A stretch of DNA of 64,000 nt from a virus, in IMG/VR virus record IMGVR_UViG_3300045988_091501, positions 46,226-110,225 of that record; one strand, given 5' to 3'. Shown here piece by piece: positions 576 through 48,171 of this stretch. Made by a program: the position numbers and the translations under genes. Position 1 is the first letter of the stretch, and every line of letters begins with the position of its first letter. The notes beneath the pieces are model-generated. The model was not told the origin of the DNA, did no database searches, and worked only from the letters and a program-made list of their open reading frames with translations.

Positions 576-3500
576 ATGGCTTTACAAGATTTTACACTTA
601 ATTTAAAAGCCAATGCTGATGCTTTAGACCAATCAATTAAAAAAGTTACGGATAGGACTTATACAGTTAAATTAAAACCTGATGGTAGTTCTATTAGAAC
701 ATTAACTCAAGACGTTACAAGTGCTGATGGTAAATTACAAGGTTTAGTTAAGACCATGACTAAATTTGATGCACAAGGAAGAGAATTAAATACAACTATT
801 ACTCAAAGTGCAAAATATGTTAAAACATGGGGTCAAGAATTTAGTGATTCATTCGGCAAGGTCTTGAGATTCGGTACAATTACGGCTATTATTGGAGCTT
901 TTACGAAAGCTATGTATGAAGCTGTTGATGTTGTAAAAGAATTTGATGATGCTATAACTGATTTAAGAAAAGTTTCTGATTTAGAAGGTCAAGCATTAGA
1001 TGATTATACGAAAAAACTAGGAGAATTAGGAGAAACCGTTGCGAGGACGAGAGTTGAGATGGTTCAAAATGCAACGATTTTCAAACAAGCTGGTTACTCT
1101 GATGACGATGCGGCAACATTGGCTAGAGTAGCTGCCCTCTATCAGAACGTAGCGGATTCAGAGGTATCTGCTCAAGAGGCAGGACAGTTTGTTGTATCAC
1201 AACTTAAAGCGTATGGATTAGCCGCTTCTGATGCCGCTAGTATTGTTGATAAGTTAAATGCTGTATCTAATAATTATTCCGTTTCTAACAGTGATTTAGC
1301 GATTGGTTTAACTAAATCAGCCGCCGCATTGCAGACATTAGGAAATACACAAGATGAAGTCATGGGCTTATTAACGGCTGGTACTGAACAGCTTACAGGT
1401 CAAGCATCCAAAGTTGGTAAGGGATTACAAACAATCGGTATCAATATTGCACAAGTAGCAACAGAAGCAGGAGAACTATCATATGAAGTAGGAAATACTA
1501 CAAAGACAATTTCTTTATTAGACGAAGCCACTGGTGATATGCGCTCCACTTTTGATGTTCTTAGCGATATTGTAAAAGATTGGAATAGTATGACCGATGC
1601 TCAACAAACTGCAATATCAAATGCTTTGGCTGGTAAGACGAGATTCGATGTGTTCGCCGCAGTTATGACCCGTTTTGACGATGCAATATCAGCTACTACA
1701 ACATCTATGAAGTCATTTGGCAGTGCAGAAGAAGAAAATGCAAAATACATGGAAAGTATGTCTGCTAAAATTGCTTTATTAAAGCAACAATTTCAAGAGC
1801 TTGTATTGGGTGATGGCGGTCTTGAAAAAGTAGGCAAGATATTTTTAGACTTAGGCATAAATACATTAAAATTAGTTAATGATTTAGGTGGTCTTAAAAC
1901 TGTATTAGTTGCGTTAGTTGGTGTAATTGCCACAATAAAGGCTGATTCAGTATTAAACGGATTAACAAAAATAACAAATATTATTCCTAATTTAATAGCA
2001 AATGTTGGCAAATTGGGAACAGTGTTTAATCTTATTGTATCTTCCCAAATTGATGAAGCATTATCTGGTGGTGCTATTCAAGCAATGTCTTTATCTCAGG
2101 CATTGCAAGCGGCTGGTGTCTCTGCTAGTGTAGCTCAAATTGCAATAGGGGGTTTATTTGCGGTATTAACTGCTGGTATTGCTATATATAGTCGTTTAAA
2201 ACAAGAGCAAGAACAAGCAACACAAAATGCTATTGACAGTGCAAATAGTTTTAAATCATATAGTGATACATTAGGTAATACTTTAAGTAAAATACAAAGT
2301 GAATCTACAACAAAATCACAACTTCTTGAAATCAATAAATCATTAAATGATTCTTATGATAATGAATCTGAAAAATTAAAAGATATAAATGATTTAAGGG
2401 CTGAGAATGTTGAGCTATTACATCAAGAGGCAGTTGCTAGAGCAGAACAAACTCAACATGAAATTGGAGCAGAAGCAACAAAACAAAGAAGATATTTACA
2501 ATCTTCTAATATAGGTCAAGAATCTGATTATGAAAGGGTAGAAGGATTAACAGGAACTCCAGAAGAAAGACTTAAAAAGGCAACTGGATCATTAAAAGAA
2601 TTTGAAGCAAATCAAGAAAATTTAAGTAATGCTGAATTGAGAAGATATTCCGCTTTAAGTTCTTATTATAATAAATTAAGTGCCGATGTTGAAAATGCTA
2701 AGAATGTTGTAGAAACTTATGATGAGGCACAAAAAATAGCCAACTCATCAACAGATGAATGGTCTAAAACAGTACAAGAAAATTCAGCAGAATTAGAAAA
2801 TCAAGGAAGCCAAGTTCAATTCACTGATGAAGAAATACAACAATATGCAGATGATATGGGTATTTCTTTTGAGGAAGCTAAAGATCAATTAAAAAGTTTC
2901 AATGGTGGAATTGATGATACCGCTACAGATATTGATAAATTAGCGAAATCAATAGGTGTATCAGTAGACGAACTTCAAAATTTTGCTGATACAATGGGTC
3001 TTTCTATTGACAGTGCGGCAGAAATCCTTCCTAGATTCAACGAATGGAATGAAGCTGTTGATGATATTCAATCATCTTATGAAGTTTTAACTCAGGCAGT
3101 TGAGGAATATAATGAACAAGGTGGCTATACCACTGATACTCTACAACAACTATTAGCTTTAGACCCAGCTTATCTTGCGGCTTTACAAGAAGAAAATGGT
3201 CAATTAACAATCAATACACAAATGTTAATGACTAAAGTGCAAGCACAAGCAGAAGAAGCTAAACAAATCATTTATAATACTGCAATAGAAAAATTAAATG
3301 CTGTTGCTAGTGGTGAAGCCGGTAATGCTACGGAGACAGCAGGGCAACAACATAATAATGCTGTAGCTGGAATTGATGCTGAAACTGGTTCATTAAATGA
3401 AAATACTAAAGCTAAACTAGCTAACGCAGTGGCAGAAGCTAGAGGTCGTGGAGGCGGTGCGTCTGAGGGTGAAATAAACAAAATTTTGTCTGAGATGACC

Positions 3501-4817
3501 AATCAATTAAAAGCGGTTGACAATTGGGCGAATACTACTGCGAAAAATTTCTCTAAAGGTATGGGAAAAGCCGCAAAAGCTACAAACAAAGCTACCAAAG
3601 CCGTTAAAGAACAGAAATCTGCCACAGAGACTTTAAAGGATAAATACAAGACAGTAATCGACTTTATCATAAAACAATATGACAAACAGATTGATAAGAT
3701 AAAAGAAGCTAAAGATGCCGCAATTAAATCTGTAGAATCCCAAATCAAGGCTCTTGAAAAGGAGAAGGATTCTAAGGTCAAGGCTATTGATGCTGAGATT
3801 ACTGCTTTGCAACGTGAGCGTGATGCAAGAGAAAAGTATTGGCAAGACCAACTTGACAAACTTGAAAAAGAAAATGATGAACGTGAACGGAACATTGCTT
3901 TACAAGAGAAACAACAAGCATTAGCATTAGCCCAACAAACTAATGTCATGGTGCTTAAAGATGGTCAATTTCAATATACACAAGATGAAAGTGCTGTTGC
4001 TGGTGCTGAACAAGATTTAGCACAACAAGAAGACCAAAATGAATATGAACGTCAAAAAGAACTCATTGAAGAACTTAGAGATACAGAACTTGAATGGTAT
4101 GATGAGCGTATTCAATCCTTAGAAGATTATAAAGATCAAGTTGAAGAGTATTATGAGAATCAGATTGAGCAACTTGAAGAATACAAAGAATATCTTGAAG
4201 AATATTATGAAGCTCAAATTGAAGCATTAAAAGCCGAAAAAGATGCTGTCAACGAAACACTTGAAGAAGGTGTGGCTAACCAACAAGAATATTGGGATAA
4301 GATGAAGGAGCAGTTACAATCTTTTGTCGAAGAATGGAACGCTTTAGTTGGTGGAATGACATTCCCTAATATAAGTGGAAGTGGTATTAGTTTAAGTGCT
4401 GTCGGTGGTAAGATTTCTGCTTCAATGAACGGTAAATCCACAGGTGATAACAAAGTATCCGCTTATGCAAGTGGTAAAGGTTCAATCGGTGATTCTGAAA
4501 TTGCTGTTGTAGGAGAAAATCCTAAGTATCGTGAACTTGTAATCGGTTCTAAGCTGAACAATGACCAAGGTGTTGTAATGAATTTGAAACGTGGTAGCGG
4601 TGTTGTTAATGCTGGTACAACAAACACACTTGCTAGTATATTCAATTCATTAAACGGTCAAAAGTCAGTTGGTCAACCTGTAAGCAATAGTAATCAATCT
4701 ATGAGTATTCAGATAGGCTCAATTAATTTACCAGAAGTAAAAGATGGTCAAGGATTTATTGATTATTTACAGAACTTTAGTGCAGATATTACACAACAAT
4801 CATTTAGAAGAGCATAG
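576..4817 (+). CDS. tail tape measure protein (TP901-type core)
   Basis: 1413 aa. Core region DAITDLRKVSD...NATIFKQAGYS...LAIGLTKSAAALQTLG resembles the TP901-family TMP core. Followed by TM segments and a long E/K/Q coiled coil. Confidence 0.85.
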   Translation: MALQDFTLNLKANADALDQSIKKVTDRTYTVKLKPDGSSIRTLTQDVTSADGKLQGLVKTMTKFDAQGRELNTTITQSAKYVKTWGQEFSDSFGKVLRFGTITAIIGAFTKAMYEAVDVVKEFDDAITDLRKVSDLEGQALDDYTKKLGELGETVARTRVEMVQNATIFKQAGYSDDDAATLARVAALYQNVADSEVSAQEAGQFVVSQLKAYGLAASDAASIVDKLNAVSNNYSVSNSDLAIGLTKSAAALQTLGNTQDEVMGLLTAGTEQLTGQASKVGKGLQTIGINIAQVATEAGELSYEVGNTTKTISLLDEATGDMRSTFDVLSDIVKDWNSMTDAQQTAISNALAGKTRFDVFAAVMTRFDDAISATTTSMKSFGSAEEENAKYMESMSAKIALLKQQFQELVLGDGGLEKVGKIFLDLGINTLKLVNDLGGLKTVLVALVGVIATIKADSVLNGLTKITNIIPNLIANVGKLGTVFNLIVSSQIDEALSGGAIQAMSLSQALQAAGVSASVAQIAIGGLFAVLTAGIAIYSRLKQEQEQATQNAIDSANSFKSYSDTLGNTLSKIQSESTTKSQLLEINKSLNDSYDNESEKLKDINDLRAENVELLHQEAVARAEQTQHEIGAEATKQRRYLQSSNIGQESDYERVEGLTGTPEERLKKATGSLKEFEANQENLSNAELRRYSALSSYYNKLSADVENAKNVVETYDEAQKIANSSTDEWSKTVQENSAELENQGSQVQFTDEEIQQYADDMGISFEEAKDQLKSFNGGIDDTATDIDKLAKSIGVSVDELQNFADTMGLSIDSAAEILPRFNEWNEAVDDIQSSYEVLTQAVEEYNEQGGYTTDTLQQLLALDPAYLAALQEENGQLTINTQMLMTKVQAQAEEAKQIIYNTAIEKLNAVASGEAGNATETAGQQHNNAVAGIDAETGSLNENTKAKLANAVAEARGRGGGASEGEINKILSEMTNQLKAVDNWANTTAKNFSKGMGKAAKATNKATKAVKEQKSATETLKDKYKTVIDFIIKQYDKQIDKIKEAKDAAIKSVESQIKALEKEKDSKVKAIDAEITALQRERDAREKYWQDQLDKLEKENDERERNIALQEKQQALALAQQTNVMVLKDGQFQYTQDESAVAGAEQDLAQQEDQNEYERQKELIEELRDTELEWYDERIQSLEDYKDQVEEYYENQIEQLEEYKEYLEEYYEAQIEALKAEKDAVNETLEEGVANQQEYWDKMKEQLQSFVEEWNALVGGMTFPNISGSGISLSAVGGKISASMNGKSTGDNKVSAYASGKGSIGDSEIAVVGENPKYRELVIGSKLNNDQGVVMNLKRGSGVVNAGTTNTLASIFNSLNGQKSVGQPVSNSNQSMSIQIGSINLPEVKDGQGFIDYLQNFSADITQQSFRRA

Positions 4818-4823
4818 ATTTTG

Positions 4824-4843
4824 AGGGGTTGAAACATACCCCT
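4824..4843 (+). terminator. weak hairpin after tape measure gene
   Basis: aggggt-N8-acccct stem directly after the stop codon. The downstream T-run is poor. Confidence 0.3.
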
Positions 4844-4868
4844 TGTACATATTAAGGAGGGCATTTGT

Positions 4869-32700: not shown

Positions 32701-33190
32701 TATTCCAAAAGGCAATACAAGCCGATGTAACGAATACATCATCTTTTGGCAATGACAAAAGAATATCTAAATCCATTCTATTCTTATAATAATACCCAGT
32801 TTTAAATGACTCATAGATTGCTCTATTTATTTTCTTACGACCATTTTCATTCTTTGCTAATAAAATAATATGACAATTACTTGAATCAGAAGAATTTCTG
32901 TCTTTTACCCAATATGCTTCTGTACCAAATACGAACTTGATTGGTTTATAATTAGGATTTGATTCAAGATTCTTTTTATTAAATTTTTCAAGGTCATCAT
33001 AAATCTTAAAATAATTTCCTTGCCATCCGTGTTCAACAGTTGAATAAATTGTTGGTATACCTTGGTCTGCTGATTTCTTATATTCTTTAAAATAATCCAT
33101 AGGCACAAGTGGAGAATCTTTATTATATCTATGTGATAAACTCGTATGTTTGTGATAATTACAAAATGATAAAATTTTACAATTATTCAT
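29774..33190 (-). CDS. DNA polymerase III alpha (DnaE-like) with PHP domain
   Basis: About 1138 aa. N-terminal YHKHTSLSH and GTDSH PHP motifs and size support the call. Start MNNCKIL at 33190 overlaps the HNH stop (ATGAATAA). Confidence 0.75.
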   Translation of the reverse strand: MNNCKILSFCNYHKHTSLSHRYNKDSPLVPMDYFKEYKKSADQGIPTIYSTVEHGWQGNYFKIYDDLEKFNKKNLESNPNYKPIKFVFGTEAYWVKDRNSSDSSNCHIILLAKNENGRKKINRAIYESFKTGYYYKNRMDLDILLSLPKDDVFVTSACIAFWNKYTIDDRDLPFGDNANVVDYSKIDEIVLKLFNHFTDFYLEVQPHNTQAQKEINAHIMELHYKYNIPIIAGTDSHVITESQMADRDDLLKSNKISYEDEQGWYMDLPSYETFFNRFKEQGILSDEEITEAIENTNIILTFDDIILDRSLKVPVAKKYRDLTQEQRNEVFENILRYEWERQSNDINKDKYDEYIKEIKHDIAEIEGCNMADYFIDTYEIMKRGIDEYGGILTPSGRGSGVSCYLNKLFRFTKVDKVNSPVLMYSERFLTKERVLDSHTPPDIDHNVSSREPFIQAQKDIIGEEGTFDLLALGTLHYKSAFKMYSRAYNLDPQLANTVTKQISKYENALKHADDDEKEFIDIYDYVDKEKYGYLIDGCQQYMGIVDNLKAHPCGTICADFDVVEEVGVIMVKSESQGDKAKETFVAVIESGTIDAFGMLKQDYLIVDSIGLTYDIYKEIGIEPLSVNELLAKIDNDSKTWDIYANGYTMCVNQCEQQKSTEKVMRFKPKNISELTQFVAGIRPSFQSMYKTFEQRKHFDYGIKAFDDLIQDQYCSSSFILYQEHLMKVLGFAGFPMSETYTIIKAISKKKHYVITQAKEKFIPNFAQAILNTKETTDKDNAMKMAEKVWQVIEDSASYGFNSAHAYCMAIDSVTLAWQKAYYPLEFYKVTLQRYTNKGDKDKVTALKKEMLKRGIKLKPIAFGDDNRQFSIDRENNCINQTMASIKNMQKVAPQILYNMSQHKNEYDGLFFIFKDLLQSDLNKKSIDILFKLDYFAEYGDVNYVINQWNIYNDVDSIMKRLRECKQLKKDECINFGLNIHEIKQFCGKETEKMFKEIDNVSLMEYILNNYQGIVDFVSTKYMYKPITLLETMAYQLGLSGYTELIDKSTDDNIYIVSEVELNQYNTPFVTLYHVNDGENTFIKANKRNYEDHPCKSGDIIKTAFRTQNKRVKDNNDKWVESEEQEEILRDYTILKSID

Positions 33191-33746
33191 TACTACCTTC
33201 CCTTTCCCACCAATAACCATATGCTGATTTTTGTTTTCCACTAATTACACCATTTATATTAGATGAACATATTTTATTATTTTTACAAATTTTAATTGAA
33301 TTTAAGTATTCAATTGCTTCTTTTGAAGAGTTGAATAATTTAATTTTTTTATGTGTTATTTTATCACACATCCATATTTTTTTCTTTTTTGAAATTGATA
33401 AATTTTTATTATGATTTCCATAATTATTATTATATTTTTGTGTGCCCCATTCTAAATTATAATAATTATTATTTAATTTATTTTCATCTTTATGACATAC
33501 AATTGGATAATTATTTGGATTCTCAACAAACGCTAAAGCCACTAATCTATTTATACGATATGTTCTCATATCATTATTCCCATATCTTAAAGTTATTTGT
33601 TCATATCCATATTTATTTATATGTTTTGTAAGCCATTTATTTGTATTTGTTGACCAAACATTGCCATCATTTGTTATATAAAACATTTTTGAATCATCTA
33701 TTGGTTTAATATATGTATCATCAAGTAAATTTGGTACTAATTTCAT
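33183..33746 (-). CDS. HNH homing endonuclease (NUMOD4-like)
   Basis: FYITNDGNVWS (NUMOD4-like), VCHKDENKLNNNYYNLEWGT (HNH). Sits immediately upstream of the polymerase gene. Confidence 0.75.
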   Translation of the reverse strand: MKLVPNLLDDTYIKPIDDSKMFYITNDGNVWSTNTNKWLTKHINKYGYEQITLRYGNNDMRTYRINRLVALAFVENPNNYPIVCHKDENKLNNNYYNLEWGTQKYNNNYGNHNKNLSISKKKKIWMCDKITHKKIKLFNSSKEAIEYLNSIKICKNNKICSSNINGVISGKQKSAYGYWWEREGSNE

Positions 33747-33823: not shown

Positions 33824-34753
33824 CTATTTTAATCCATTAAAAATATGTGCAATAACATCAATAGTCCAACCATTTCCAATACATTTATATCTTTGTGTAT
33901 CAGATAATCCTTCTGTATAATTGTCTGGTAGTGTTTGCGCTCGCTCACATTCAATAGGCGTTGGTTTATAATATTCACCATTTTCGTATTGAATATTAGT
34001 TGCTCCGCTATTTGAGATATTTTGTCCTGTCATTAAACATCTCATTTTTTGGTCTAAAGTTCTAATTGCTTTATGCGCCTTTTCATGTGCAAGAGTTCCT
34101 TCTTGTTTATTATTTAATCTATCTGTTATATTATATTGTTCTTTTTCTTCTGTTGGTTGAACAATATCTTTTAAAGTTAAACCTTTGTCTATTGGTTGTG
34201 ATACATTCGGGATGTTTGTCCAGTATAGTCTTTTTCTACTTTGCGCAGAAAGCAATTTGCTATCAATCATAATAGGTTCTACGCCTAATGCTTGAGTAAT
34301 AACATCTTGCCATTTTTTGCACATCTTTACATTTTCCAATAAAAAATATTTTGGTTTGCTTTCTTTTAATACTCTTACATATTCCCAAAATAAATAAGAA
34401 TATCCATCAAATTCAAATCCTTTTTCTTTCAAATCTAAATATTGTTCAAGTGATGTAATTTCTATATTGTCTTTTGTACTTGCTCCATTCATTCTTCCGG
34501 CAAACGAAAAATTTTGACAAGGACTACCCCCAATTAGCAAGTCTAAATAACCATTATATTGTGTTCCATCAACATCTCTCACATCCCCAATTTCTGTTAT
34601 ATCGTTCCAATTTTTTTGTGCTATTTTAATTGCATAATCACAAATTTCACTAGCATGATAACCATTAACTTTAATTCCAGCTCTGTCTAAAGCACATCTG
34701 CCCCCCCCAATTCCATCAAAAAGACTTAATACATTTAATCCATTTTCATTCAT
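33824..34753 (-). CDS. DNA (cytosine-5)-methyltransferase
   Basis: LFDGIGGG (motif I), GGSPCQNFS (IV), LLENV (VI), QSRKR (VIII), GNGW (X). Confidence 0.9.
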   Translation of the reverse strand: MNENGLNVLSLFDGIGGGRCALDRAGIKVNGYHASEICDYAIKIAQKNWNDITEIGDVRDVDGTQYNGYLDLLIGGSPCQNFSFAGRMNGASTKDNIEITSLEQYLDLKEKGFEFDGYSYLFWEYVRVLKESKPKYFLLENVKMCKKWQDVITQALGVEPIMIDSKLLSAQSRKRLYWTNIPNVSQPIDKGLTLKDIVQPTEEKEQYNITDRLNNKQEGTLAHEKAHKAIRTLDQKMRCLMTGQNISNSGATNIQYENGEYYKPTPIECERAQTLPDNYTEGLSDTQRYKCIGNGWTIDVIAHIFNGLK

Positions 34754-35927: not shown

Positions 35928-36437
35928 TTACATCACCATCCAATCTTCTGCTAATACATCACTAATGCTAGGAGTCCAAGGAACAACTTTACCTTGCACT
36001 GTTTTAAGTGCGATATAAGGCTCATATTCAACCAAATCTTGTTCATTGACTAATTGTTCAGCTATTTTAGTACATGGCTTATATGAGCCTTGTGGAACGT
36101 AATAAATGAATTGATTCTTTCCATTCCAACCTTGTCTTGTTAATTTAGAACCTTTTAACAGTTTGTCTAAGGCTTCATCAAATTTCATTAAACAATCATC
36201 CGTTTCTGCTATATATTGTTTAAATAATGAATTTCCTTTCCAATATATTCTACGTGATTTAGGACAAGCAACTCCTTTTCTAATGTCATCAATAGTATAA
36301 CTTTTATATATTGTTCCATCAAATAAAACATCAACAATTTTATGACCATTTGATAAAATATGTACTTCACTGTCTATTGATATAAAGTCTACACCATCTG
36401 CTCCAATTTCTTCCATTTCTTCTAAAATTGACTTCAT
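35928..36437 (-). CDS. DUF2829 / Tad2-like domain protein (candidate anti-Thoeris sponge)
   Basis: The C-terminal half FDEALDKLLKGSKLTRQGWNGKNQFIYY...EPYIALKTVQGKVVPWTPSISDVLAEDWMV matches the DUF2829 signature from memory. An extra ~80-aa N-terminal region is present. Confidence 0.6.
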   Translation of the reverse strand: MKSILEEMEEIGADGVDFISIDSEVHILSNGHKIVDVLFDGTIYKSYTIDDIRKGVACPKSRRIYWKGNSLFKQYIAETDDCLMKFDEALDKLLKGSKLTRQGWNGKNQFIYYVPQGSYKPCTKIAEQLVNEQDLVEYEPYIALKTVQGKVVPWTPSISDVLAEDWMVM

Positions 36438-40189: not shown

Positions 40190-40873
40190 TTAATCAATCA
40201 ATTCAATTTCATCCCAACGCCAGCACAACTGTCCATTTTCTTTATCAATAGCGTTCATATATTTCTTGTCAAATGTAACTGAAAAGTAAAACCCTCTTTC
40301 TTTCATAGTACAATCATAATTAACAATTCCTTCTTTGCCAACATATTCGTCTAAACAAATATATTTATTTTTTCTATGTGGTTCAACATTGATAATACGA
40401 ACTCTTTGACCTTCCTTAATTGTTCTTCCAATTAGACCTCTGCCTTTTGTTGCAGTCTTATTAGTAAAATCCATTCTATCAATACAATTGTCAACAGCGG
40501 TCTTGAAATTAAAATCATCATATTTTTCATAACGTGATGTGTTTGATCTAGAAACTAATTTGTTATCAATATAATATTTTGCATTAGTATGTTTTCCGTC
40601 TTCACAAGTAATAATCAATTTGTAATTATGCGATGAATTTAATAATTCAATCATATTGCATGTATTTTTTTCAATACATTCACCGTGACCATCTTTAATG
40701 CCGTGACTACTACTACCCCAACCATTTACATCATTATCCCAGTTAATTATAACATTTCTTTCATTAAGGGCAACAACTGTACCTTTATCTCCTGCTTTAG
40801 TATCAAACCAAGTCTTTCCTGTTGCAACAATTCTGTCTCCTTCTTTTAAACTCATCAATTCTTTAAATGTCAT
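40190..40873 (-). CDS. hypothetical protein
   Basis: 227-aa ORF with AAAGGAGGA RBS. Confidence 0.7.
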   Translation of the reverse strand: MTFKELMSLKEGDRIVATGKTWFDTKAGDKGTVVALNERNVIINWDNDVNGWGSSSHGIKDGHGECIEKNTCNMIELLNSSHNYKLIITCEDGKHTNAKYYIDNKLVSRSNTSRYEKYDDFNFKTAVDNCIDRMDFTNKTATKGRGLIGRTIKEGQRVRIINVEPHRKNKYICLDEYVGKEGIVNYDCTMKERGFYFSVTFDKKYMNAIDKENGQLCWRWDEIELID

Positions 40874-41056
40874 TTCTTAATCCTCCTTTAATATAATTTT
40901 GTGCGTTAAGCTCCTTTTCTATTCCGCACATGTAGTCACACCCTTACTCTACTGACTACTCACCTCATCAAATGTTTTTAAGGTATAAACATTTCAAATT
41001 AAACTTCGCTTGTTAAAGTTTTGAGTCAATTAAAAGCTACGAAAAGTTTGACTTCA

Positions 41057-41148
41057 TTCATGCAATAGGAATCGAACCTATACCTCTCCTAGGAATTGTA
41101 TGCTCTGCCTTACTTACTTGGCATCTCCTAATATTACACCATACATGA
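41057..41148 (-). ncRNA. 92-nt tRNA-like RNA with aberrant anticodon region
   Basis: Acceptor TCATGTA / TGCATGA (one G-U). Canonical T-arm ATAGG-TTCGATT-CCTAT. The only central helix is TGCC-N9/10-GGCA. No convincing D-arm. Confidence 0.35.
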
Positions 41149-41292
41149 ACTTTAATTATTATCTCGGTTTAATCGACCTCACCTTAAACGGGGTTGTTCA
41201 TCAACTCACATGGAACAGTTCTACCAAATTAAGCTATTGCTTGTTTAACGATACAAGCTACCTCCAACTGCCAAGTCATAACATATAGCCAT

Positions 41293-41370
41293 GGTGCATT
41301 GTAGGACTCTAACCTACATTTCTCTTATAGCGAGCGTCTTTATTAGACTAAATACCTATATGTTTCGCAC
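41293..41370 (-). ncRNA. weak tRNA-like element
   Basis: T-arm-like GTAGG-TTAGAGT-CCTAC. The acceptor has only 5 of 7 pairs. Stem GTCT / AGAC carries a 5-nt loop. Confidence 0.2.
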
Positions 41371-41396
41371 TGTCTGTGTACTTTAGACGGTGATAG

Positions 41397-41466
41397 TTGG
41401 TTAATTTGGAATTGAACCAAAATTTCCTTTATTAAAAAGGCGTACTTACGTTTATACTATTAACCA
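41397..41466 (-). tRNA. 70-nt tRNA-like gene with non-canonical anticodon loop
   Basis: Perfect acceptor TGGTTAA / TTAACCA. D-stem GTAT / GTAC with no GG in its loop. Stem CCTTT / AAAGG leaves only the 5-nt loop TTAAT. T-arm TTTGG-TTCAATT-CCAAA. Confidence 0.45.
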
Positions 41467-41561
41467 ATTTATATATTTATCTATAATCTTTTGAATGATT
41501 CGGCATATAAATACATTTGTACCCATTAAGTAACATTTTGTGTTTCCTTTCTTAAATAAAA

Positions 41562-41649
41562 TACGCACTCCGAGAATCGAACTCGGCTTTACCTTGTTAG
41601 GGCTTACGATTTATAAGATCGTGGCTCTTACCTACTGAGCTAAGTGCGC
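41562..41649 (-). tRNA. tRNA with anticodon UAU and a 19-nt variable region
   Basis: GCGCACT-TA-GCTC-AGTAGGTAA-GAGC-C-ACGAT-CTTATAA-ATCGT-AAGCCCTAACAAGGTAAAG-CCGAG-TTCGATT-CTCGG-AGTGCGT-A. Confidence 0.7.
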
Positions 41650-41755
41650 ATGTGAGGTTTGTAGCTTTCACTACCATGTTTTATTTTCGATGGGCTAGAC
41701 CTCAAAGTAACCATCTAGTTAGGAGCGACCTAACAACTTCTTGCTTTATATATGT

Positions 41756-41784
41756 ATTATACCACACATATTAACATTTGTCAA
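41756..41784 (-). promoter_or_regulatory. consensus sigma-A promoter upstream of the tRNA-like cluster
   Basis: TTGACA-17-TGGTATAAT. Confidence 0.75.
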
Positions 41785-41937
41785 CTACTTTTTTACAGAA
41801 ACATGATAACCTTGACTTTCATAATTCTTCTTGGCTGTGTCCTTGTCAGAACTCTTAATAGTAACTTCAAACATCTCTACAATTCCATTGTCAAGTTCTT
41901 TTCTACAAATTAAAACGCTTCTTCCTTGCTTTTTCAT
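41785..41937 (-). CDS. 50-aa hypothetical protein, absent from the ORF track
   Basis: AAAGGAG RBS. MKKQGRSVLICRKELDNGIVEMFEV... The stop codon abuts the -35 of the tRNA promoter. Confidence 0.55.
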   Translation of the reverse strand: MKKQGRSVLICRKELDNGIVEMFEVTIKSSDKDTAKKNYESQGYHVSVKK

Positions 41938-47619: not shown

Positions 47620-48171
47620 TTAAATTCCATACTTTTCAAATAAATTTCTTTGTGGTGCAAATTCACCAAAATATTCTTTTTCTGCTCTTAATCTTGCTAT
47701 AATGGCATCTTCTAAATTCTTATAAGAACCTAAGTTAATCTTTTTATGATTATAACCTATTCTTGCAACATAACTATTATGTTCTATACTTACACCCATA
47801 AAAGGACACTTGCTATTTTTAGGTTTCGATTGATTGTTGCTATTTTGTTTGGGAGTGCATATCCTTAAATTTAATTTTCTATTGTCTAAACGATTATTAT
47901 TGATGTGGTCTATATTTCTCTCTTTATCTTCAATACCCATAATTATGTTATGTAGCCTTACTAATTTTTTATTTTTGTAATCTCTTGCTCTAACATATAA
48001 ATTATCTATACTCCAACAATATTCCTTAATTTTATCATAGTCTTCTAAATCAAAATAAAATTTTTCACCTTTAGAAGTATACCCAATTCCGTATTCACCA
48101 GTTAAATCGTAAGTATTATATCTTTTATTTCCATGCAAAGTTAAATTACCACCTCTAATCTTCGTATTCAA
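47620..48171 (-). CDS. HNH endonuclease with AP2-like domain
   Basis: NIDHINNNRLDNRKLNLRICTPKQN (HNH). GVSIEHNSYVARIGYNHKKINLGSYKNLEDA (AP2-like). Confidence 0.7.
   Translation of the reverse strand: MNTKIRGGNLTLHGNKRYNTYDLTGEYGIGYTSKGEKFYFDLEDYDKIKEYCWSIDNLYVRARDYKNKKLVRLHNIIMGIEDKERNIDHINNNRLDNRKLNLRICTPKQNSNNQSKPKNSKCPFMGVSIEHNSYVARIGYNHKKINLGSYKNLEDAIIARLRAEKEYFGEFAPQRNLFEKYGI

What the first reader, a model, noticed from the sequence alone, without database searches (positions are those of the whole stretch)
41057..41755. Promoter-driven cluster of one good tRNA and several aberrant tRNA-like RNAs
No protein-length ORF lies downstream of the promoter at 41756-41784. Instead there are at least four elements with tRNA T-arms. 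The element at 41562-41649 has textbook acceptor, D and T arms and a 5-bp anticodon stem with loop CTTATAA (anticodon UAU). It also carries a 19-nt variable region, which is a class-II length not expected for an Ile-type anticodon. The element at 41397-41466 folds into a neat 70-nt cloverleaf, but full stem pairing leaves a 5-nt anticodon loop (TTAAT) and the D-loop lacks GG. The element at 41057-41148 (92 nt) has a canonical TTCGATT T-arm and acceptor but only a TGCC-N9/10-GGCA central helix. The element at 41293-41370 is weaker still. The 5' leader (41650-41750) contains extra helices, for example GTTAGG-TCGCT-CCTAAC. Possibilities include decaying tRNA genes, tRNAs with altered anticodon loops that evade host anticodon nucleases, or a class-II body that would be charged independently of its anticodon. 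I folded these by eye only.
Basis: partly seen in the sequence, partly recalled or inferred. Interest (0 to 1): 0.65.

Follow-up and report, generated by a model that had tools for sequence, protein, structure and literature searches.

The report
Phage tRNA operon hiding conserved RNAs
A strongly promoted, protein-free stretch of a gut phage genome encodes one isoleucine tRNA of an unusual but widespread extra-armed type, plus worn tRNA look-alikes that flank short RNA segments conserved far better than the neighbouring genes, so the look-alikes probably act as cutting signals for small RNAs of unknown function.

Summary
On the minus strand a perfect sigma-70-type promoter (41784-41756) is followed by about 880 nt with no ORF. 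ARAGORN and Rfam call two tRNAs. One is an 88-nt tRNA(UAU) with a 19-nt variable region. The other is a 70-nt tRNA(UAA)-like gene with a 4-bp anticodon stem, U37 and no G19. The other two elements fall below threshold here, but their homologues in more than 20 related gut-phage contigs score as tRNAs with unrelated anticodons. The extra arm is no accident: CCCU-NN-CAAGG recurs in most phage tRNA(UAU) genes sampled and in tRNA arrays of rumen Firmicutes. I could not find this class described. Between tRNA 1 and tRNA 2 lies the scar of an HNH homing-endonuclease gene. Most unexpected, in relatives whose flanking protein is only 39-57% identical, the segments between the tRNA-like elements (leader, 'EX', tail) stay 80-100% identical. 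Meanwhile anticodon arms are lost, expanded or swapped, and acceptor and T stems change by compensation. Best reading: a tRNA-punctuated operon, with one AUA decoder plus tRNA-shaped processing modules that release conserved small RNAs of unknown function. Decay alone, nuclease evasion and anticodon-independent charging are less well supported.

The parts
41756..41784 (-). Consensus sigma-70-type promoter with extended -10 (TTGACA-17-TATAAT, TG)
   Evidence: 12/12 match. Member of a family of about 20 promoters on the minus strand. Conserved in all relatives.
41650..41750 (-). Conserved 5' leader RNA (about 100 nt) that ends at the 5' end of the tRNA. Hairpins GUUAGG/CCUAAC and GUAG/CUAC, helix UGAGGU/ACCUCA.
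   Evidence: 88-93% identical to L142, L145 and L148, whose flanking protein is 39-57% identical. One compensatory pair (GUAG/CUAC to GUAA/UUAC) and one wobble change. No Rfam family.
41562..41649 (-). tRNA(UAU), 88 nt: AUA decoder (Ile inferred) with extra arm in the variable region
   Evidence: Rfam 57 bits, ARAGORN. The family cloverleaf covaries: 96% paired, 0/500 shuffles.
41592..41602 (-). Core of the extra arm, CCCUAACAAGG (3-bp stem CCU/AGG, loop AACA)
   Evidence: Fold. The same core occurs in unrelated phage and bacterial tRNA(UAU) genes. Consensus CCCU-NN-CAAGG in 17 of 24 phage tRNA(UAU) genes sampled without reference to it.
41477..41536 (-). Scar of an HNH homing-endonuclease gene: fused first 13 and last 7 codons, 19 codons plus stop
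   Evidence: Aligns to the start and end of the 176-aa ORF present in L003, L004, L006, L007, L010, L026, L027 and L028. That ORF matches HNH_3, E 6.6e-08.
41397..41466 (-). Optional slot-2 tRNA(UAA)-like gene, 70 nt: 4-bp anticodon stem plus G.A, U37, G19 replaced by U
   Evidence: Rfam 48.6 bits, ARAGORN Leu(taa). Present only in the window and L008/L009. Other relatives carry a different tRNA-like gene here or none.
41366..41396 (-). Spacer hairpin with conserved loop AAGUACA
   Evidence: RNAalifold, pairs with compensatory changes. 97% identical in L148.
41280..41364 (-). E2: eroded tRNA-derived module. D-like stem GUCU/AGAC, stem CUC/GAG with loop GCUAUAA, T arm GUAGG-UUAGAGU-CCUAC, closed by 12-bp stem AACAUAUAGGUAU/AUGGCUAUAUGUU.
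   Evidence: No call in the window. Homologues score 26-41.5 bits. D-like stem covaries C-G/U-A. T stem is GUAGG/CCUAC here and ACAGG/CCUGU in L148. The tRNA-type acceptor is well paired in L142.
41161..41279 (-). EX: strongly conserved non-tRNA segment. Blocks AUGACUUGGCAGUUGGAG (41279-41262) and UGGUAGAACUG...UUAAACCGA (41226-41164) around a variable hairpin (41258-41239, loop AUCGUUAA).
   Evidence: Blocks 92-100% identical to L142, L145 and L148. The hairpin has at least 4 different stems with the loop kept. No Rfam hit. MFE not significant, z +0.56.
41056..41149 (-). E3: tRNA-derived module. 8-bp acceptor UUCAUGUA/UGCAUGAA, T arm AUAGG-UUCGAUU-CCUAU, stem GUGU/AUAC, inner hairpin UGCC/GGCA. 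No usable anticodon arm.
   Evidence: Rfam 18.3 bits here. Homologues score 30.8-50.8 bits. Acceptor and inner hairpin covary; the middle is hypervariable.
41002..41055 (-). Conserved tail after E3 (hairpins AGUCAA/UUGACU and AACUU/AAGUU)
   Evidence: 80-98% identical in deep relatives.
40874..41001 (-). Variable 5' UTR of the downstream gene. Two non-homologous versions among relatives, each with an 8-bp AU-rich hairpin.
   Evidence: 40-49% identity between versions.
40190..40873 (-). 227-aa gene of unknown function, always directly downstream. No terminator separates it from the RNA array.
   Evidence: Synteny in all relatives. No minus-strand terminator. No family or usable model.

Best explanation
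This is an early or middle transcription unit of an abundant gut phage lineage: a tRNA operon turned into a tRNA-punctuated small-RNA operon. Host RNA polymerase starts at the consensus promoter and reads through about 880 nt of non-coding sequence into the 227-aa gene (shown: promoter present, no ORF, no terminator). The precursor carries four to five tRNA-shaped modules. Slot 1 is the one true decoder, a tRNA(UAU) that reads AUA. AUA makes up 16-21 per 1000 phage codons, more in the structural (presumably late) genes. A UAU anticodon needs no host lysidine synthetase (inferred). This tRNA belongs to a widespread class with a sequence-fixed extra arm, CCCU-NN-CAAGG. I infer that the arm compensates for the known weaknesses of UAU decoders (poor IleRS recognition, AUG misreading) or is a handle for another factor. 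The other modules (slot 2, E2, E3) descend from tRNA genes. They are kept for their shape: acceptor stem and T arm, the part that RNase P and the 3'-end tRNA-processing nucleases recognise. They are not kept for any anticodon. Cutting at their ends would release the strongly conserved segments between them as discrete RNAs: the leader (about 100 nt), EX (about 120-140 nt), and the tail as the 5' end of the downstream mRNA (inferred). An HNH homing endonuclease once sat beside slot 1. It probably drives the frequent swapping of the slot-1 and slot-2 cassettes. What the leader and EX RNAs do is unknown.
For: Promoter, absence of ORF and absence of terminator. Two tRNAs above threshold. The same order of modules appears in every relative examined, 11 distinct versions plus deeper lineages. 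Slot 1 has at least 5 unrelated bodies. All carry UAU or CAU except a degenerate one in L145. AUA usage. Homologues of E2 and E3 score as tRNAs but with different anticodons or loops: UAU-like, UUA, CAU plus 1 nt, CUA, UGA, 6-nt, 8-nt, or no arm. Acceptor and T stems keep pairing through compensatory changes. E3 acceptor: G-C to A-U, and A-U to G-C. E3 T stem: A-U to G-C in L127. E2 T stem: two pairs changed in L148. Against L142, L145 and L148 the flanking protein is 52%, 57% and 39% identical. For L142 and L145 the flanking gene is 63-68% identical at nucleotide level and 51-57% at third codon positions. Over the same three comparisons the leader is 88-93%, EXa 93-100%, EXb 92-98% and the tail 80-91% identical. 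E3 is only 28-39% identical over its whole length in L142 and L148, because its middle is replaced. HNH gene and its scar. Family-wide extra arm. IleRS recognises UAU poorly and UAU misreads AUG in E. coli components: PMC3575796. Phages of low-GC Firmicutes often carry AUA-decoding tRNA-Ile: PMC10688831. That RNase P and RNase Z recognise the acceptor/T-arm half of tRNA, and that tRNA-like structures are used to excise neighbouring RNAs (mitochondrial punctuation, MALAT1/mascRNA, MHV68 tRNA-miRNA, stable RNAs in the T4 tRNA cluster), is my own knowledge.
Against: There is no expression or end-mapping data, so processing is inferred only. The conserved blocks never vary, so no covariation can support a fold for EX or most of the leader. 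Their MFE is no better than shuffles (z +0.56 and -0.39). Two single changes break the predicted EX stem CAGUU/AACUG. The window's own E2 has a mismatched tRNA-type acceptor, A56 in the T loop and no GG, so RNase P may not accept it. Compensatory events in E2 and E3 are few, about 6 in all. Conservation of the blocks could instead act at the DNA level or through protein binding. Ile charging of the tRNA is untested.
Confidence: 0.5

Rival explanations
1. Plain erosion. An old phage tRNA array is decaying after a new AUA-decoder cassette made the other genes redundant. E2, E3 and slot 2 are pseudogenes. The conserved blocks are DNA-level signals (operators, protein-binding or replication/recombination sites), not RNAs.
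For: tRNA scores fall along a gradient, and the window's copies are the worst: E2 41.5 to 29 to no hit, E3 50.8 to 18.3. Elbow contacts are lost in the window's E2 (no GG, A56). Folds are not unusually stable. Slot 2 and the HNH gene are deleted in several genomes. Slot 1 is degenerate in L145.
Against: No genome has lost E2, EX or E3, even at 39% flanking-protein identity. Stems change by compensation. Changes concentrate in the anticodon region, while the T arm is kept (invariant in 8 close versions). Nothing is known that would explain about 250 nt of DNA-level constraint inside a transcribed tRNA array.
Confidence: 0.2
2. Counter-defence. The tRNA-shaped RNAs are decoys or sponges for host immune effectors that attack tRNAs (acceptor-end or anticodon-arm nucleases, nucleotidyltransferase or pyrophosphokinase toxins). 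The extra arm, and the arm-less tRNA-Leu genes in related arrays, let phage tRNAs escape class-specific nucleases.
For: Strong early promoter. A Tad2-like anti-Thoeris gene and a DNA methylase lie a few kb downstream. Only the acceptor/T-arm half is conserved. Arrays that carry the extra-armed tRNA(UAU) also carry tRNA-Leu genes without the long arm. Phage tRNAs are known to counter tRNA-cleaving defences: PMC10264068 and PMC11555353 (listed), PMC13056530.
Against: The good tRNA has a standard anticodon loop. No defence system is known to target tRNA-Ile(UAU) or to discriminate by variable arm in bacteria. A decoy role does not explain the conservation of the non-tRNA blocks.
Confidence: 0.15
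3. Recoding. The extra-armed tRNA(UAU) is charged by a class-II-type synthetase (LeuRS, as for the nematode nev-tRNA-Ile(UAU)) or SerRS (as for allo-tRNAs). It would then insert Leu or Ser at AUA.
For: Long variable region plus A73. Precedents: nev-tRNA(UAU) is leucylated in vitro (PMC3333845, PMC4300185). UAU is a predominant anticodon of 8/4 allo-tRNAs (PMC5389517).
Against: 7/5 acceptor/T geometry, not 8/4. The D arm has a 4-bp stem, unlike the Leu-type D arm seen in the same arrays. The extra stem has only 3 bp. A73 excludes Ser identity. A37, A38, A73 and U12-A23 fit Ile identity. L029 and L127 carry an ordinary tRNA(CAU) of tRNA-Ile2 type in the same slot, so the slot's function is normal AUA decoding. 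The genome shows no sign of a changed code.
Confidence: 0.05
4. The whole 41750-41000 region folds into one large structured RNA of the kind found next to tRNAs in phages (ROOL- or GOLLD-like), with the tRNA-like parts as domains.
For: Size (about 750 nt), phage context, association with tRNAs, conserved blocks. The leader 3' end ACCUCAC is complementary to EX GUGAGGU (seen in the sequence).
Against: No Rfam match, even at E<=10. Cassettes of 90-700 nt are inserted or deleted between the modules without loss of the rest, which argues for separable units. No long-range covariation was seen.
Confidence: 0.07

Closest known systems
Phage tRNA gene clusters with free-standing homing endonuclease genes and co-transcribed stable RNAs (T4 tRNA region with segB and the 'species 1/2' RNAs; T5 tRNA region). 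Own knowledge.
   Same: Promoter-driven polycistronic array of tRNAs. An HNH-type endonuclease gene sits between tRNA genes (intact in relatives, a scar here). Extra non-tRNA RNAs are embedded in the array.
   Different: Only one clear decoder remains. The other tRNA-shaped units have no conserved anticodon. The embedded RNAs (leader, EX) have no similarity to any Rfam family.
tRNA-Ile with UAU anticodon as lysidine-independent AUA decoder (Mycoplasma mobile, PMC3575796; Lactobacillus plantarum and Bacillus subtilis cases cited there; phage tRNA-Ile genes, PMC10688831)
   Same: Anticodon loop CUUAUAA, A37, A38, A73. Supplies AUA decoding. Found in low-GC Firmicutes and their phages.
   Different: The known examples are, to my knowledge, ordinary class-I tRNAs with a short variable loop. 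The papers read here do not mention any variable arm. This one has a 19-nt variable region with the fixed core CCCU-NN-CAAGG.
Nematode nev-tRNA-Ile(UAU) (PMC3333845, PMC4300185)
   Same: A tRNA with a UAU anticodon and a long variable arm.
   Different: Eukaryotic nuclear genes, described as class II tRNAs and leucylated in vitro. Here the D arm is the class-I type, the arm is short and fixed in sequence, and the hosts are bacteria and phages. No homology is implied.
allo-tRNAs (8/4 and 9/3 tRNAs with long variable arm; UAU among the commonest anticodons; PMC5389517, PMC7609411)
   Same: Bacterial and phage tRNAs with a long variable arm and a non-Ser/Leu/Tyr anticodon, also seen in Clostridia and rumen samples.
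   Different: They are defined by a 12-bp acceptor/T branch in 8/4 or 9/3 form and by serylation. The family here is 7/5 with A73.
tRNA-like structures used as processing signals for neighbouring RNAs (mitochondrial tRNA punctuation, MALAT1-mascRNA, MHV68 tRNA-miRNA units). Own knowledge.
   Same: tRNA-shaped elements whose acceptor/T-arm half is conserved while decoding features are dispensable. They sit directly next to conserved non-coding RNAs.
   Different: Those systems are eukaryotic, organellar or from an animal virus. Processing here is only inferred.
tRNAs with 4-bp anticodon stems (PMC13092985)
   Same: The slot-2 gene 41397-41466 has a 4-bp stem with an unpaired top pair. 5.6% of bacterial tRNA genes do.
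   Different: It also has U at position 37 and lacks G19. It is present in only 3 of the relatives.

Membership tests
Canonical tRNA (Rfam RF00005) | Covariance-model score at or above the gathering score of 29 bits | tested here: met
   41562-41649: 57.0 bits. 41397-41466: 48.6 bits.
Canonical tRNA (Rfam RF00005) | The same score threshold, applied to the two weak elements of the window | tested here: not met
   41056-41149: 18.3 bits. 41280-41370: no match at E<=10. Their homologues in relatives do pass: 29-50.8 bits.
Canonical tRNA (decoding competence) | 7-nt anticodon loop with U33 and a purine at position 37; G18-G19 and T-loop UUCRAnn for the elbow | tested here: met
   41562-41649: loop CUUAUAA, D loop AGUAGGUAA, T loop UUCGAUU.
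Canonical tRNA (decoding competence) | The same features in 41397-41466 | tested here: not met
   The loop is 5 nt in the MFE fold, or UUUAAUA with U37 if opened. D loop AAACGUAA has no GG.
Bacterial class II tRNA (Leu, Ser, Tyr, Sec) | Variable region longer than 10 nt that forms a stem-loop | tested here: met
   19 nt; predicted 3-bp stem CCU/AGG with loop AACA.
Bacterial class II tRNA (Leu, Ser, Tyr, Sec) | Anticodon and body of one of the class II isotypes (Leu-type 3-bp D stem with long D loop; G73 for Ser; GUA for Tyr; 8/5 for Sec) | tested here: not met
   Anticodon UAU, 4-bp D stem GCUC/GAGC, A73, 7/5 geometry. Leu-type D arms in the same kind of array look different.
allo-tRNA | 8/4 or 9/3 acceptor/T-stem configuration | tested here: not met
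   7-bp acceptor and 5-bp T stem, both covarying, in 15 family members.
tRNA-Ile AUA decoder | Anticodon UAU (or CAU to be lysidinylated), A37, A38, A73, U12-A23 | tested here: met
   All are present in the window tRNA. A73 is invariant and U12-A23 occurs in 14 of 15 family members. C4-G69 and C29-G41 are not conserved.
tRNA-Ile AUA decoder | Aminoacylation with isoleucine and reading of AUA but not AUG | not testable with these tools
   Needs charged-tRNA sequencing or in vitro assays.
HNH_3 homing endonuclease gene | Intact ORF with HNH motif | tested here: not met
   The window keeps only 19 codons (41536-41477). The intact 176-aa ORF of L003 scores 32.5 bits against a 24.8-bit cut-off.
Known phage-associated large or small ncRNAs (ROOL, GOLLD, tmRNA, Y-RNA-like and all other Rfam 15 families) | Match to the family covariance model | tested here: not met
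   Only tRNA hits reach threshold; nothing credible at E<=10. ARAGORN finds no tmRNA.
tRNA-punctuated RNA processing unit | tRNA-shaped elements with conserved acceptor and T arm that directly abut conserved non-tRNA RNAs | tested here: met
tRNA-punctuated RNA processing unit | Cleavage by RNase P and 3'-end tRNA nucleases at the element borders; stable products | not testable with these tools
   No transcript data are available.

The most novel reading that the evidence does not exclude
Two linked novelties. (1) The extra-armed tRNA(UAU) is an undescribed bacterial and phage tRNA class. Its sequence-fixed arm CCCU-NN-CAAGG would be a specific handle: for IleRS, for a wobble-modifying enzyme, or for escape from immunity. 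That handle would make a UAU anticodon usable for AUA. (2) The leader and EX segments are new structured small RNAs of an abundant gut phage lineage. They are produced by using eroded tRNAs purely as RNase P/Z punctuation, a processing logic not described for phages.
Probability: 0.35. Interest if true: 0.8.

Novelty: new variant of a known kind. Interest (0 to 1): 0.65.

Why it matters
The extra arm would add a new structural class to bacterial tRNAs, beyond Leu, Ser, Tyr and Sec. It would also give a direct handle on an open problem: how a UAU anticodon can be charged by IleRS and kept from reading AUG. The class occurs in cultured rumen bacteria (Lachnospiraceae AC2031 and NE2001, Eubacterium ruminantium ATCC 17233), so it can be tested at the bench. 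The operon also shows phage tRNA genes being kept for their shape rather than their anticodon. That bears on the long-standing question of why phages carry tRNAs. It points to two strongly conserved small RNAs in a phage lineage that is common in gut metagenomes: more than 500 protein clusters of the linked gene.

Tried and rejected
- **Similarity to cultured phages.** No DNA match to INPHARED for the region or for extra-armed tRNAs.
- **Rfam at relaxed threshold.** Only chance hits besides tRNA.
- **Stop-codon recoding as a reason for odd tRNAs.** Rejected: long ORFs under the standard code, and all three stop codons are in use.
- **Coding potential.** The plus-strand ORFs 41100-41288 and 41652-41774 and a 15-codon minus-strand ORF in EX were rejected. 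Indels among relatives are not multiples of three. The few substitutions are non-synonymous. There is no ribosome-binding site.
- **Shared motif between tail and extra arm.** YTAACAAG is not enriched in the window: 6 found, 7 expected.
- **Leader, EX and tail in other phages.** nhmmer found them only in this lineage. One exact-motif hit, L149, is a chance match.
- **tRNA-related enzymes in the window (Ro, RtcB, CCA-adding enzyme, TilS).** None found in the ORFs scanned.
- **Function of the 227-aa downstream protein.** No Pfam, PHROG function, NCBIfam or PDB match. AlphaFold from the single sequence gave pLDDT 35.
- **Isotype by similarity.** The trimmed tRNA(UAU) resembles tRNA-Lys(UUU) of the same array slightly more than tRNA-Ile(GAU), 0.76 against less than 0.70. 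This is not decisive.
- **Choosing the E2 closing stem.** Neither the tRNA-type acceptor nor the 12-bp closing stem could be chosen by covariation in the close set (the first count used a register off by one). L142 supports the tRNA-type acceptor. The L148 insertion supports the long stem as the module boundary.
- **Contexts of P0122.** The contigs were too short.
- **Literature.** Searches for the arm motif or the class gave nothing relevant.
Full report
**1. What the window is.**
The window is an AT-rich (about 30% G+C) phage genome with no nucleotide match among cultured phages. Its proteins resemble those of phages of Clostridia, Enterocloster, Fusobacterium and staphylococci only distantly. 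They include a RecJ-like exonuclease, Sak4-like ATPase, PolIII alpha, NrdD/NrdG, dUTPase, a tyrosine recombinase and a Tad2-like anti-Thoeris protein. Genes from 18 kb to 64 kb lie on the minus strand. About 20 copies of TTGACA-N14-TGnTATAAT lie on that strand, against 0.04 expected. The standard genetic code fits.

**2. Check of the observation.**
The finding reads on the minus strand.
- The promoter at 41784-41756 matches the consensus 12/12 with an extended -10.
- No minus-strand ORF of 40 aa or more lies between it and the ATG at 40873. No terminator-like site lies on that strand.
- ARAGORN and Rfam agree on two tRNAs.
  - 41562-41649 scores 57.0 bits. It has textbook arms, loop CUUAUAA and a 19-nt variable region. 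The cloverleaf is also the MFE fold (z -2.55).
- 41397-41466 scores 48.6 bits. The programs open one U-A pair instead. This gives UUUAAUA (anticodon UAA) on a 4-bp stem topped by G.A, with U at position 37 and no G19.
  - A 4-bp anticodon stem is not rare: 5.6% of bacterial tRNA genes have one (PMC13092985). A pyrimidine at position 37 is very unusual (my own knowledge).
- 41057-41148 reaches only 18.3 bits (D-like hairpin plus T arm). 41293-41370 gives no hit. ARAGORN calls the former only at a relaxed threshold or with a 24-nt 'intron'.
- So the description is accurate and the hand folds were essentially right.

**3. Relatives.**
The gene directly downstream (227 aa, 40190-40873) was used as an anchor.
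- It led to 10 IMG/VR contigs and 7 metagenome contigs, some labelled human gut.
- Later searches added deeper lineages: L125, L127, L128, L142, L145, L147 and L148.
- The protein family has more than 500 clusters at 90% identity, so the lineage is common.
- Every locus has the same order: promoter, leader, slot-1 tRNA, an optional insert plus slot-2 tRNA-like gene, a hairpin with loop AAGUACA, element E2, a segment I call EX, element E3, a tail, a variable 5' UTR, then the gene.

**4. Slot 1 is an AUA-decoder cassette.**
At least five unrelated tRNA bodies occupy slot 1:
- two extra-armed 87-88-nt types (the window/L008 type and the L003 type);
- a 74-nt type with an odd T loop UCCGACU (L001, L002, L023, L148);
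- a 72-nt type (L125, L147);
- a canonical 74-nt tRNA(CAU) of 68-70 bits (L029, L127).

All carry UAU or CAU. Only L145 has a degenerate copy. AUA accounts for 21 per 1000 codons in the plus-strand structural genes (presumably late) and 16 per 1000 in the minus-strand genes. Phages of low-GC Firmicutes commonly bring AUA-decoding tRNA-Ile genes (PMC10688831). The decoder function of slot 1 is therefore ordinary. Ile identity is inferred from the anticodon, A37, A38, A73 and U12-A23, not shown.

**5. The long variable region marks a class.**
- The two extra-armed bodies in this lineage differ throughout their stems yet share CCCUAACAAGG.
- A scan for CTTATAA-N8-CCCTAACAAGG found 12 further unrelated viral contigs (51-213 kb, with large tRNA arrays) and 5 bacterial contigs.
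- In 15 distinct members the four canonical stems covary freely: 96% paired, 101 double changes, 0 of 500 shuffles as good.
- That search fixed the arm by design, so I repeated it with only the D arm and anticodon loop (TAGCTCA-N7-10-GAGCCA-N4-CTTATAA). Of 24 distinct phage tRNA(UAU) genes, 17 carry the arm. The consensus is CCCU-NN-CAAGG, where NN is AA, AG, GA, CA, UG or UA. The other 7 are ordinary class-I tRNAs.
- Searching for the arm plus a T loop, without the anticodon, returned tRNAs with UAU almost exclusively.
- Among GTDB species representatives, 13 genomes have it. Most are rumen or gut Lachnospiraceae (including isolates AC2031 and NE2001), plus Ruminococcus, Eubacterium ruminantium ATCC 17233, Erysipelotrichaceae, a Tenericutes MAG and Paludibacteraceae. 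It usually sits inside arrays of 16-25 tRNA genes.
- The arm's 3-bp stem never covaries and only its two loop bases vary. This points to sequence-specific recognition or tertiary contacts rather than a mere spacer.
- The family is 7/5 with A73 and a 4-bp D stem. It is therefore not an allo-tRNA (PMC5389517), and not a Leu-, Ser- or Tyr-type class II tRNA.
- The nematode nev-tRNA-Ile(UAU) is an analogue, not a relative.
- I found no description of this class or motif. No member occurs among cultured phage genomes.
- A plausible role follows from PMC3575796: E. coli IleRS charges a UAU variant at about 1% efficiency, and UAU misreads AUG on E. coli ribosomes. An added arm could supply compensating contacts or recruit a modifying enzyme. 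This is inference.

**6. A homing endonuclease was here.**
In 8 relatives (L003, L004, L006, L007, L010, L026, L027, L028) a 176-aa ORF follows slot 1. It matches HNH_3 (E 6.6e-08). The window keeps only the fused first 13 and last 7 codons (41536-41477), apparently through deletion between short repeats TATATGCC.AATCAT. The slot-2 gene travels with this insert. The window, L008 and L009 have the tRNA(UAA)-like gene. L003-type genomes have another tRNA-like gene with a 12-nt loop (36-49 bits). Several genomes have neither. Related arrays contain 74-76-nt tRNA-Leu(UAA/UAG) genes without the long arm. The window's slot-2 gene, however, has a class-I D arm. Its status as a working tRNA is doubtful.

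**7. E2 and E3 derive from tRNA genes but are not kept as decoders.**
- Homologues of E2 score 41.5 bits (L010, L028, L125, L147), 41.3 (L142), 35.4 (L029), 29 (L003, L006) and 26-28 (L002, L023). The window's copy does not register.
- Homologues of E3 score 50.8 (L142), 36.6 (L006), 35.2 (L003), 33.3 (L145), 32.6 (L028) and 30.8 (L029), against 18.3 here.
- Their anticodon regions disagree completely.
  - E2 has GCUAUAA, UGUAUAA, CGCAUAG, CAUAUAG, 8-nt CUUAUGAA or CUUAUUAA, or CUUUAAA (UUA) in L142.
  - E3 has CUA with C33 (L028), 6-nt CUUUUG (L029), 8-nt AGCAUAAG with a perfect D arm (L142), UGA (L148), no arm at all (L002, L003, L006), or an inserted hairpin (the window).
- The acceptor and T arms, by contrast, persist, and they change by compensation.
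  - E3 acceptor: G-C to A-U in three versions, and A-U to G-C in L142.
  - E3 T stem: A-U to G-C in L127.
  - E3 inner hairpin: UGCC/GGCA to UACC/GGUA.
  - E2 D-like stem: C-G to U-A.
  - E2 T stem: GUAGG/CCUAC to ACAGG/CCUGU in L148.
  - E2 acceptor: AGGCAUU/AAUGCCG is well paired in L142.
- The number of independent events is small, about six. The contrast between an intact top half and a scrambled bottom half is nonetheless clear.

**8. The most conserved parts are not tRNA-like.**
I compared the window with three deep relatives. Flanking-gene identities:

| Relative | 227-aa protein (aa identity) | Gene, nt identity | Third codon positions | 50-codon ORF, nt identity |
|---|---|---|---|---|
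| L142 | 52% | 63% | 51% | 71% |
| L145 | 57% | 68% | 57% | 76% |
| L148 | 39% | not measured | not measured | not measured |

Non-coding blocks, nucleotide identity to the window:

| Block | L142 | L145 | L148 |
|---|---|---|---|
| Leader | 93% | 88% | 91% |
| EXa | 100% | 93% | 100% |
| EXb (63 nt) | 95% | 98% | 92% |
| Tail | 91% | 91% | 80% |
| E2 | 73% | not measured | 61% |
| E3 (whole element) | 39% | not measured | 28% |

- E3's T arm and 3' acceptor strand alone are 70% identical in L142 and 93% in L145.
- The UTR exists in two unrelated versions.
- The hairpin inside EX has at least four different stems with the loop UCGUUAA kept.
- One leader hairpin shows a compensatory change.
- These blocks are not coding (see 'tried and rejected'). 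They match no Rfam family and occur only in this lineage.
- Because they never vary, covariation cannot test their fold. Their MFE is not better than shuffles.

**9. Mechanism proposed.**
Three facts fit one model:
- tRNA-shaped units are kept for the acceptor and T arm only;
- their anticodon parts are freely lost;
- the segments that abut them are strongly conserved.

In this model the tRNA-like units serve as RNase P and 3'-end-nuclease punctuation. Cutting there would release the leader, EX and the downstream mRNA from one early transcript. Slot 1 doubles as the AUA decoder. The recognition of the top half of tRNA by these enzymes, and the use of tRNA-like structures to excise other RNAs, are established elsewhere (my own knowledge). 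Their use here is inferred. I give this composite model 0.5. Plain erosion with DNA-level constraint gets 0.2, a counter-defence decoy role 0.15, a single large RNA 0.07, and recoding by a class-II synthetase 0.05.

**10. Verdict.**
The locus is a new variant of a known kind, the phage tRNA operon. Two aspects appear to be undescribed:
- the extra-armed tRNA(UAU) class, which extends well beyond this phage;
- the strongly conserved leader and EX RNAs framed by eroded tRNAs.

Noticed in passing
window 20776-63989, minus strand: About 20 copies of an extended consensus promoter, TTGACA-N14-TGnTATAAT, all on the minus strand (0.04 expected by chance). Many sit just upstream of short ORFs. This suggests heavy use of unmodified host polymerase for the early and middle genes.
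   Followed up: partly
L063, L067, L078, L079 (e.g. L067 about 1540-1660, plus strand): In 156-168-kb phage contigs the extra-armed tRNA(UAU) gene is interrupted inside the anticodon loop (CTT^ATAA) by a 45-50-nt insert. The insert has a closing stem and a T-arm-like hairpin. ARAGORN does not call these genes. They could carry short non-group-I introns or be non-decoding derivatives.
   Followed up: partly
L119 about 4721-4868; L124 from 1346 (Eubacterium ruminantium ATCC 17233): The extra-armed tRNA(UAU) gene is interrupted in the T loop, after TTCGA, by an insert of at least 62 nt. The 3' part of the tRNA resumes after the insert in L119.
   Followed up: no
L044 5852-5927, L046 2618-2691, L030 10281-10355 and 14380-14454: The same arrays hold 74-76-nt tRNA-Leu(UAA/UAG) genes. 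At least the L044/L046 UAA genes have a Leu-type D arm (3-bp stem, 11-nt loop). All lack the long variable arm. This is the mirror image of the extra-armed tRNA(UAU).
   Followed up: partly
L051, L053, L057; L064: The string CCCTAACAAGG also occurs as the anticodon arm (CC-CUAACAA-GG, anticodon AAC) of phage tRNAs that ARAGORN calls Val. It occurs as the variable arm of a tRNA-Ser(GCU) too. The extra arm thus looks like a small anticodon stem-loop.
   Followed up: no
L002 5424-5497 (same in L025): One variant of the 74-nt slot-1 tRNA(UAU) has acceptor GCGCCCA/UGGGUGU, which creates a G3.U70 pair. G3.U70 is the main alanine identity element (my own knowledge).
   Followed up: no
window 35928-36437, minus strand: A 169-aa protein with a Thoeris anti-defence 2-like domain (Tad2, E 1.6e-24), about 5 kb downstream of the RNA operon. 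A C-5 DNA methylase lies at 33824-34753.
   Followed up: no
window 33183-33746 and 47620-48171, minus strand: Two more free-standing HNH_3 (one with NUMOD4) endonuclease-like ORFs, both slightly below the Pfam cut-off. The genome carries several homing-endonuclease genes besides the scar in the tRNA operon.
   Followed up: no
window 40874-41001; relatives: The 5' UTR of the 227-aa gene exists in two unrelated sequence versions among close relatives (40-49% identity). Each begins with an 8-bp AU-rich hairpin (AAAUGUUU/AAACAUUU or AAAACUU/AAGUUUU). The module was swapped with its structure retained.
   Followed up: partly
window 41785-41937, minus strand, with its own promoter at 41997-41969: A conserved 50-codon ORF with a good ribosome-binding site and its own near-consensus promoter lies directly upstream of the RNA operon in all relatives.
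   Followed up: no
L127 1359-1988; L148 between E2 and EX: Other cassettes enter the operon at module borders. L127 has a 209-aa ORF between the UTR and the gene. L148 has an insert of about 190 nt exactly between the E2 closing stem and EX.
   Followed up: partly
window 41650-41665 and 41171-41183: The leader's 3' end ACCUCAC is complementary to GUGAGGU in EX. The motif UGAGGUC occurs in both the leader and EX. This could mean leader-EX pairing or a shared protein site.
   Followed up: no
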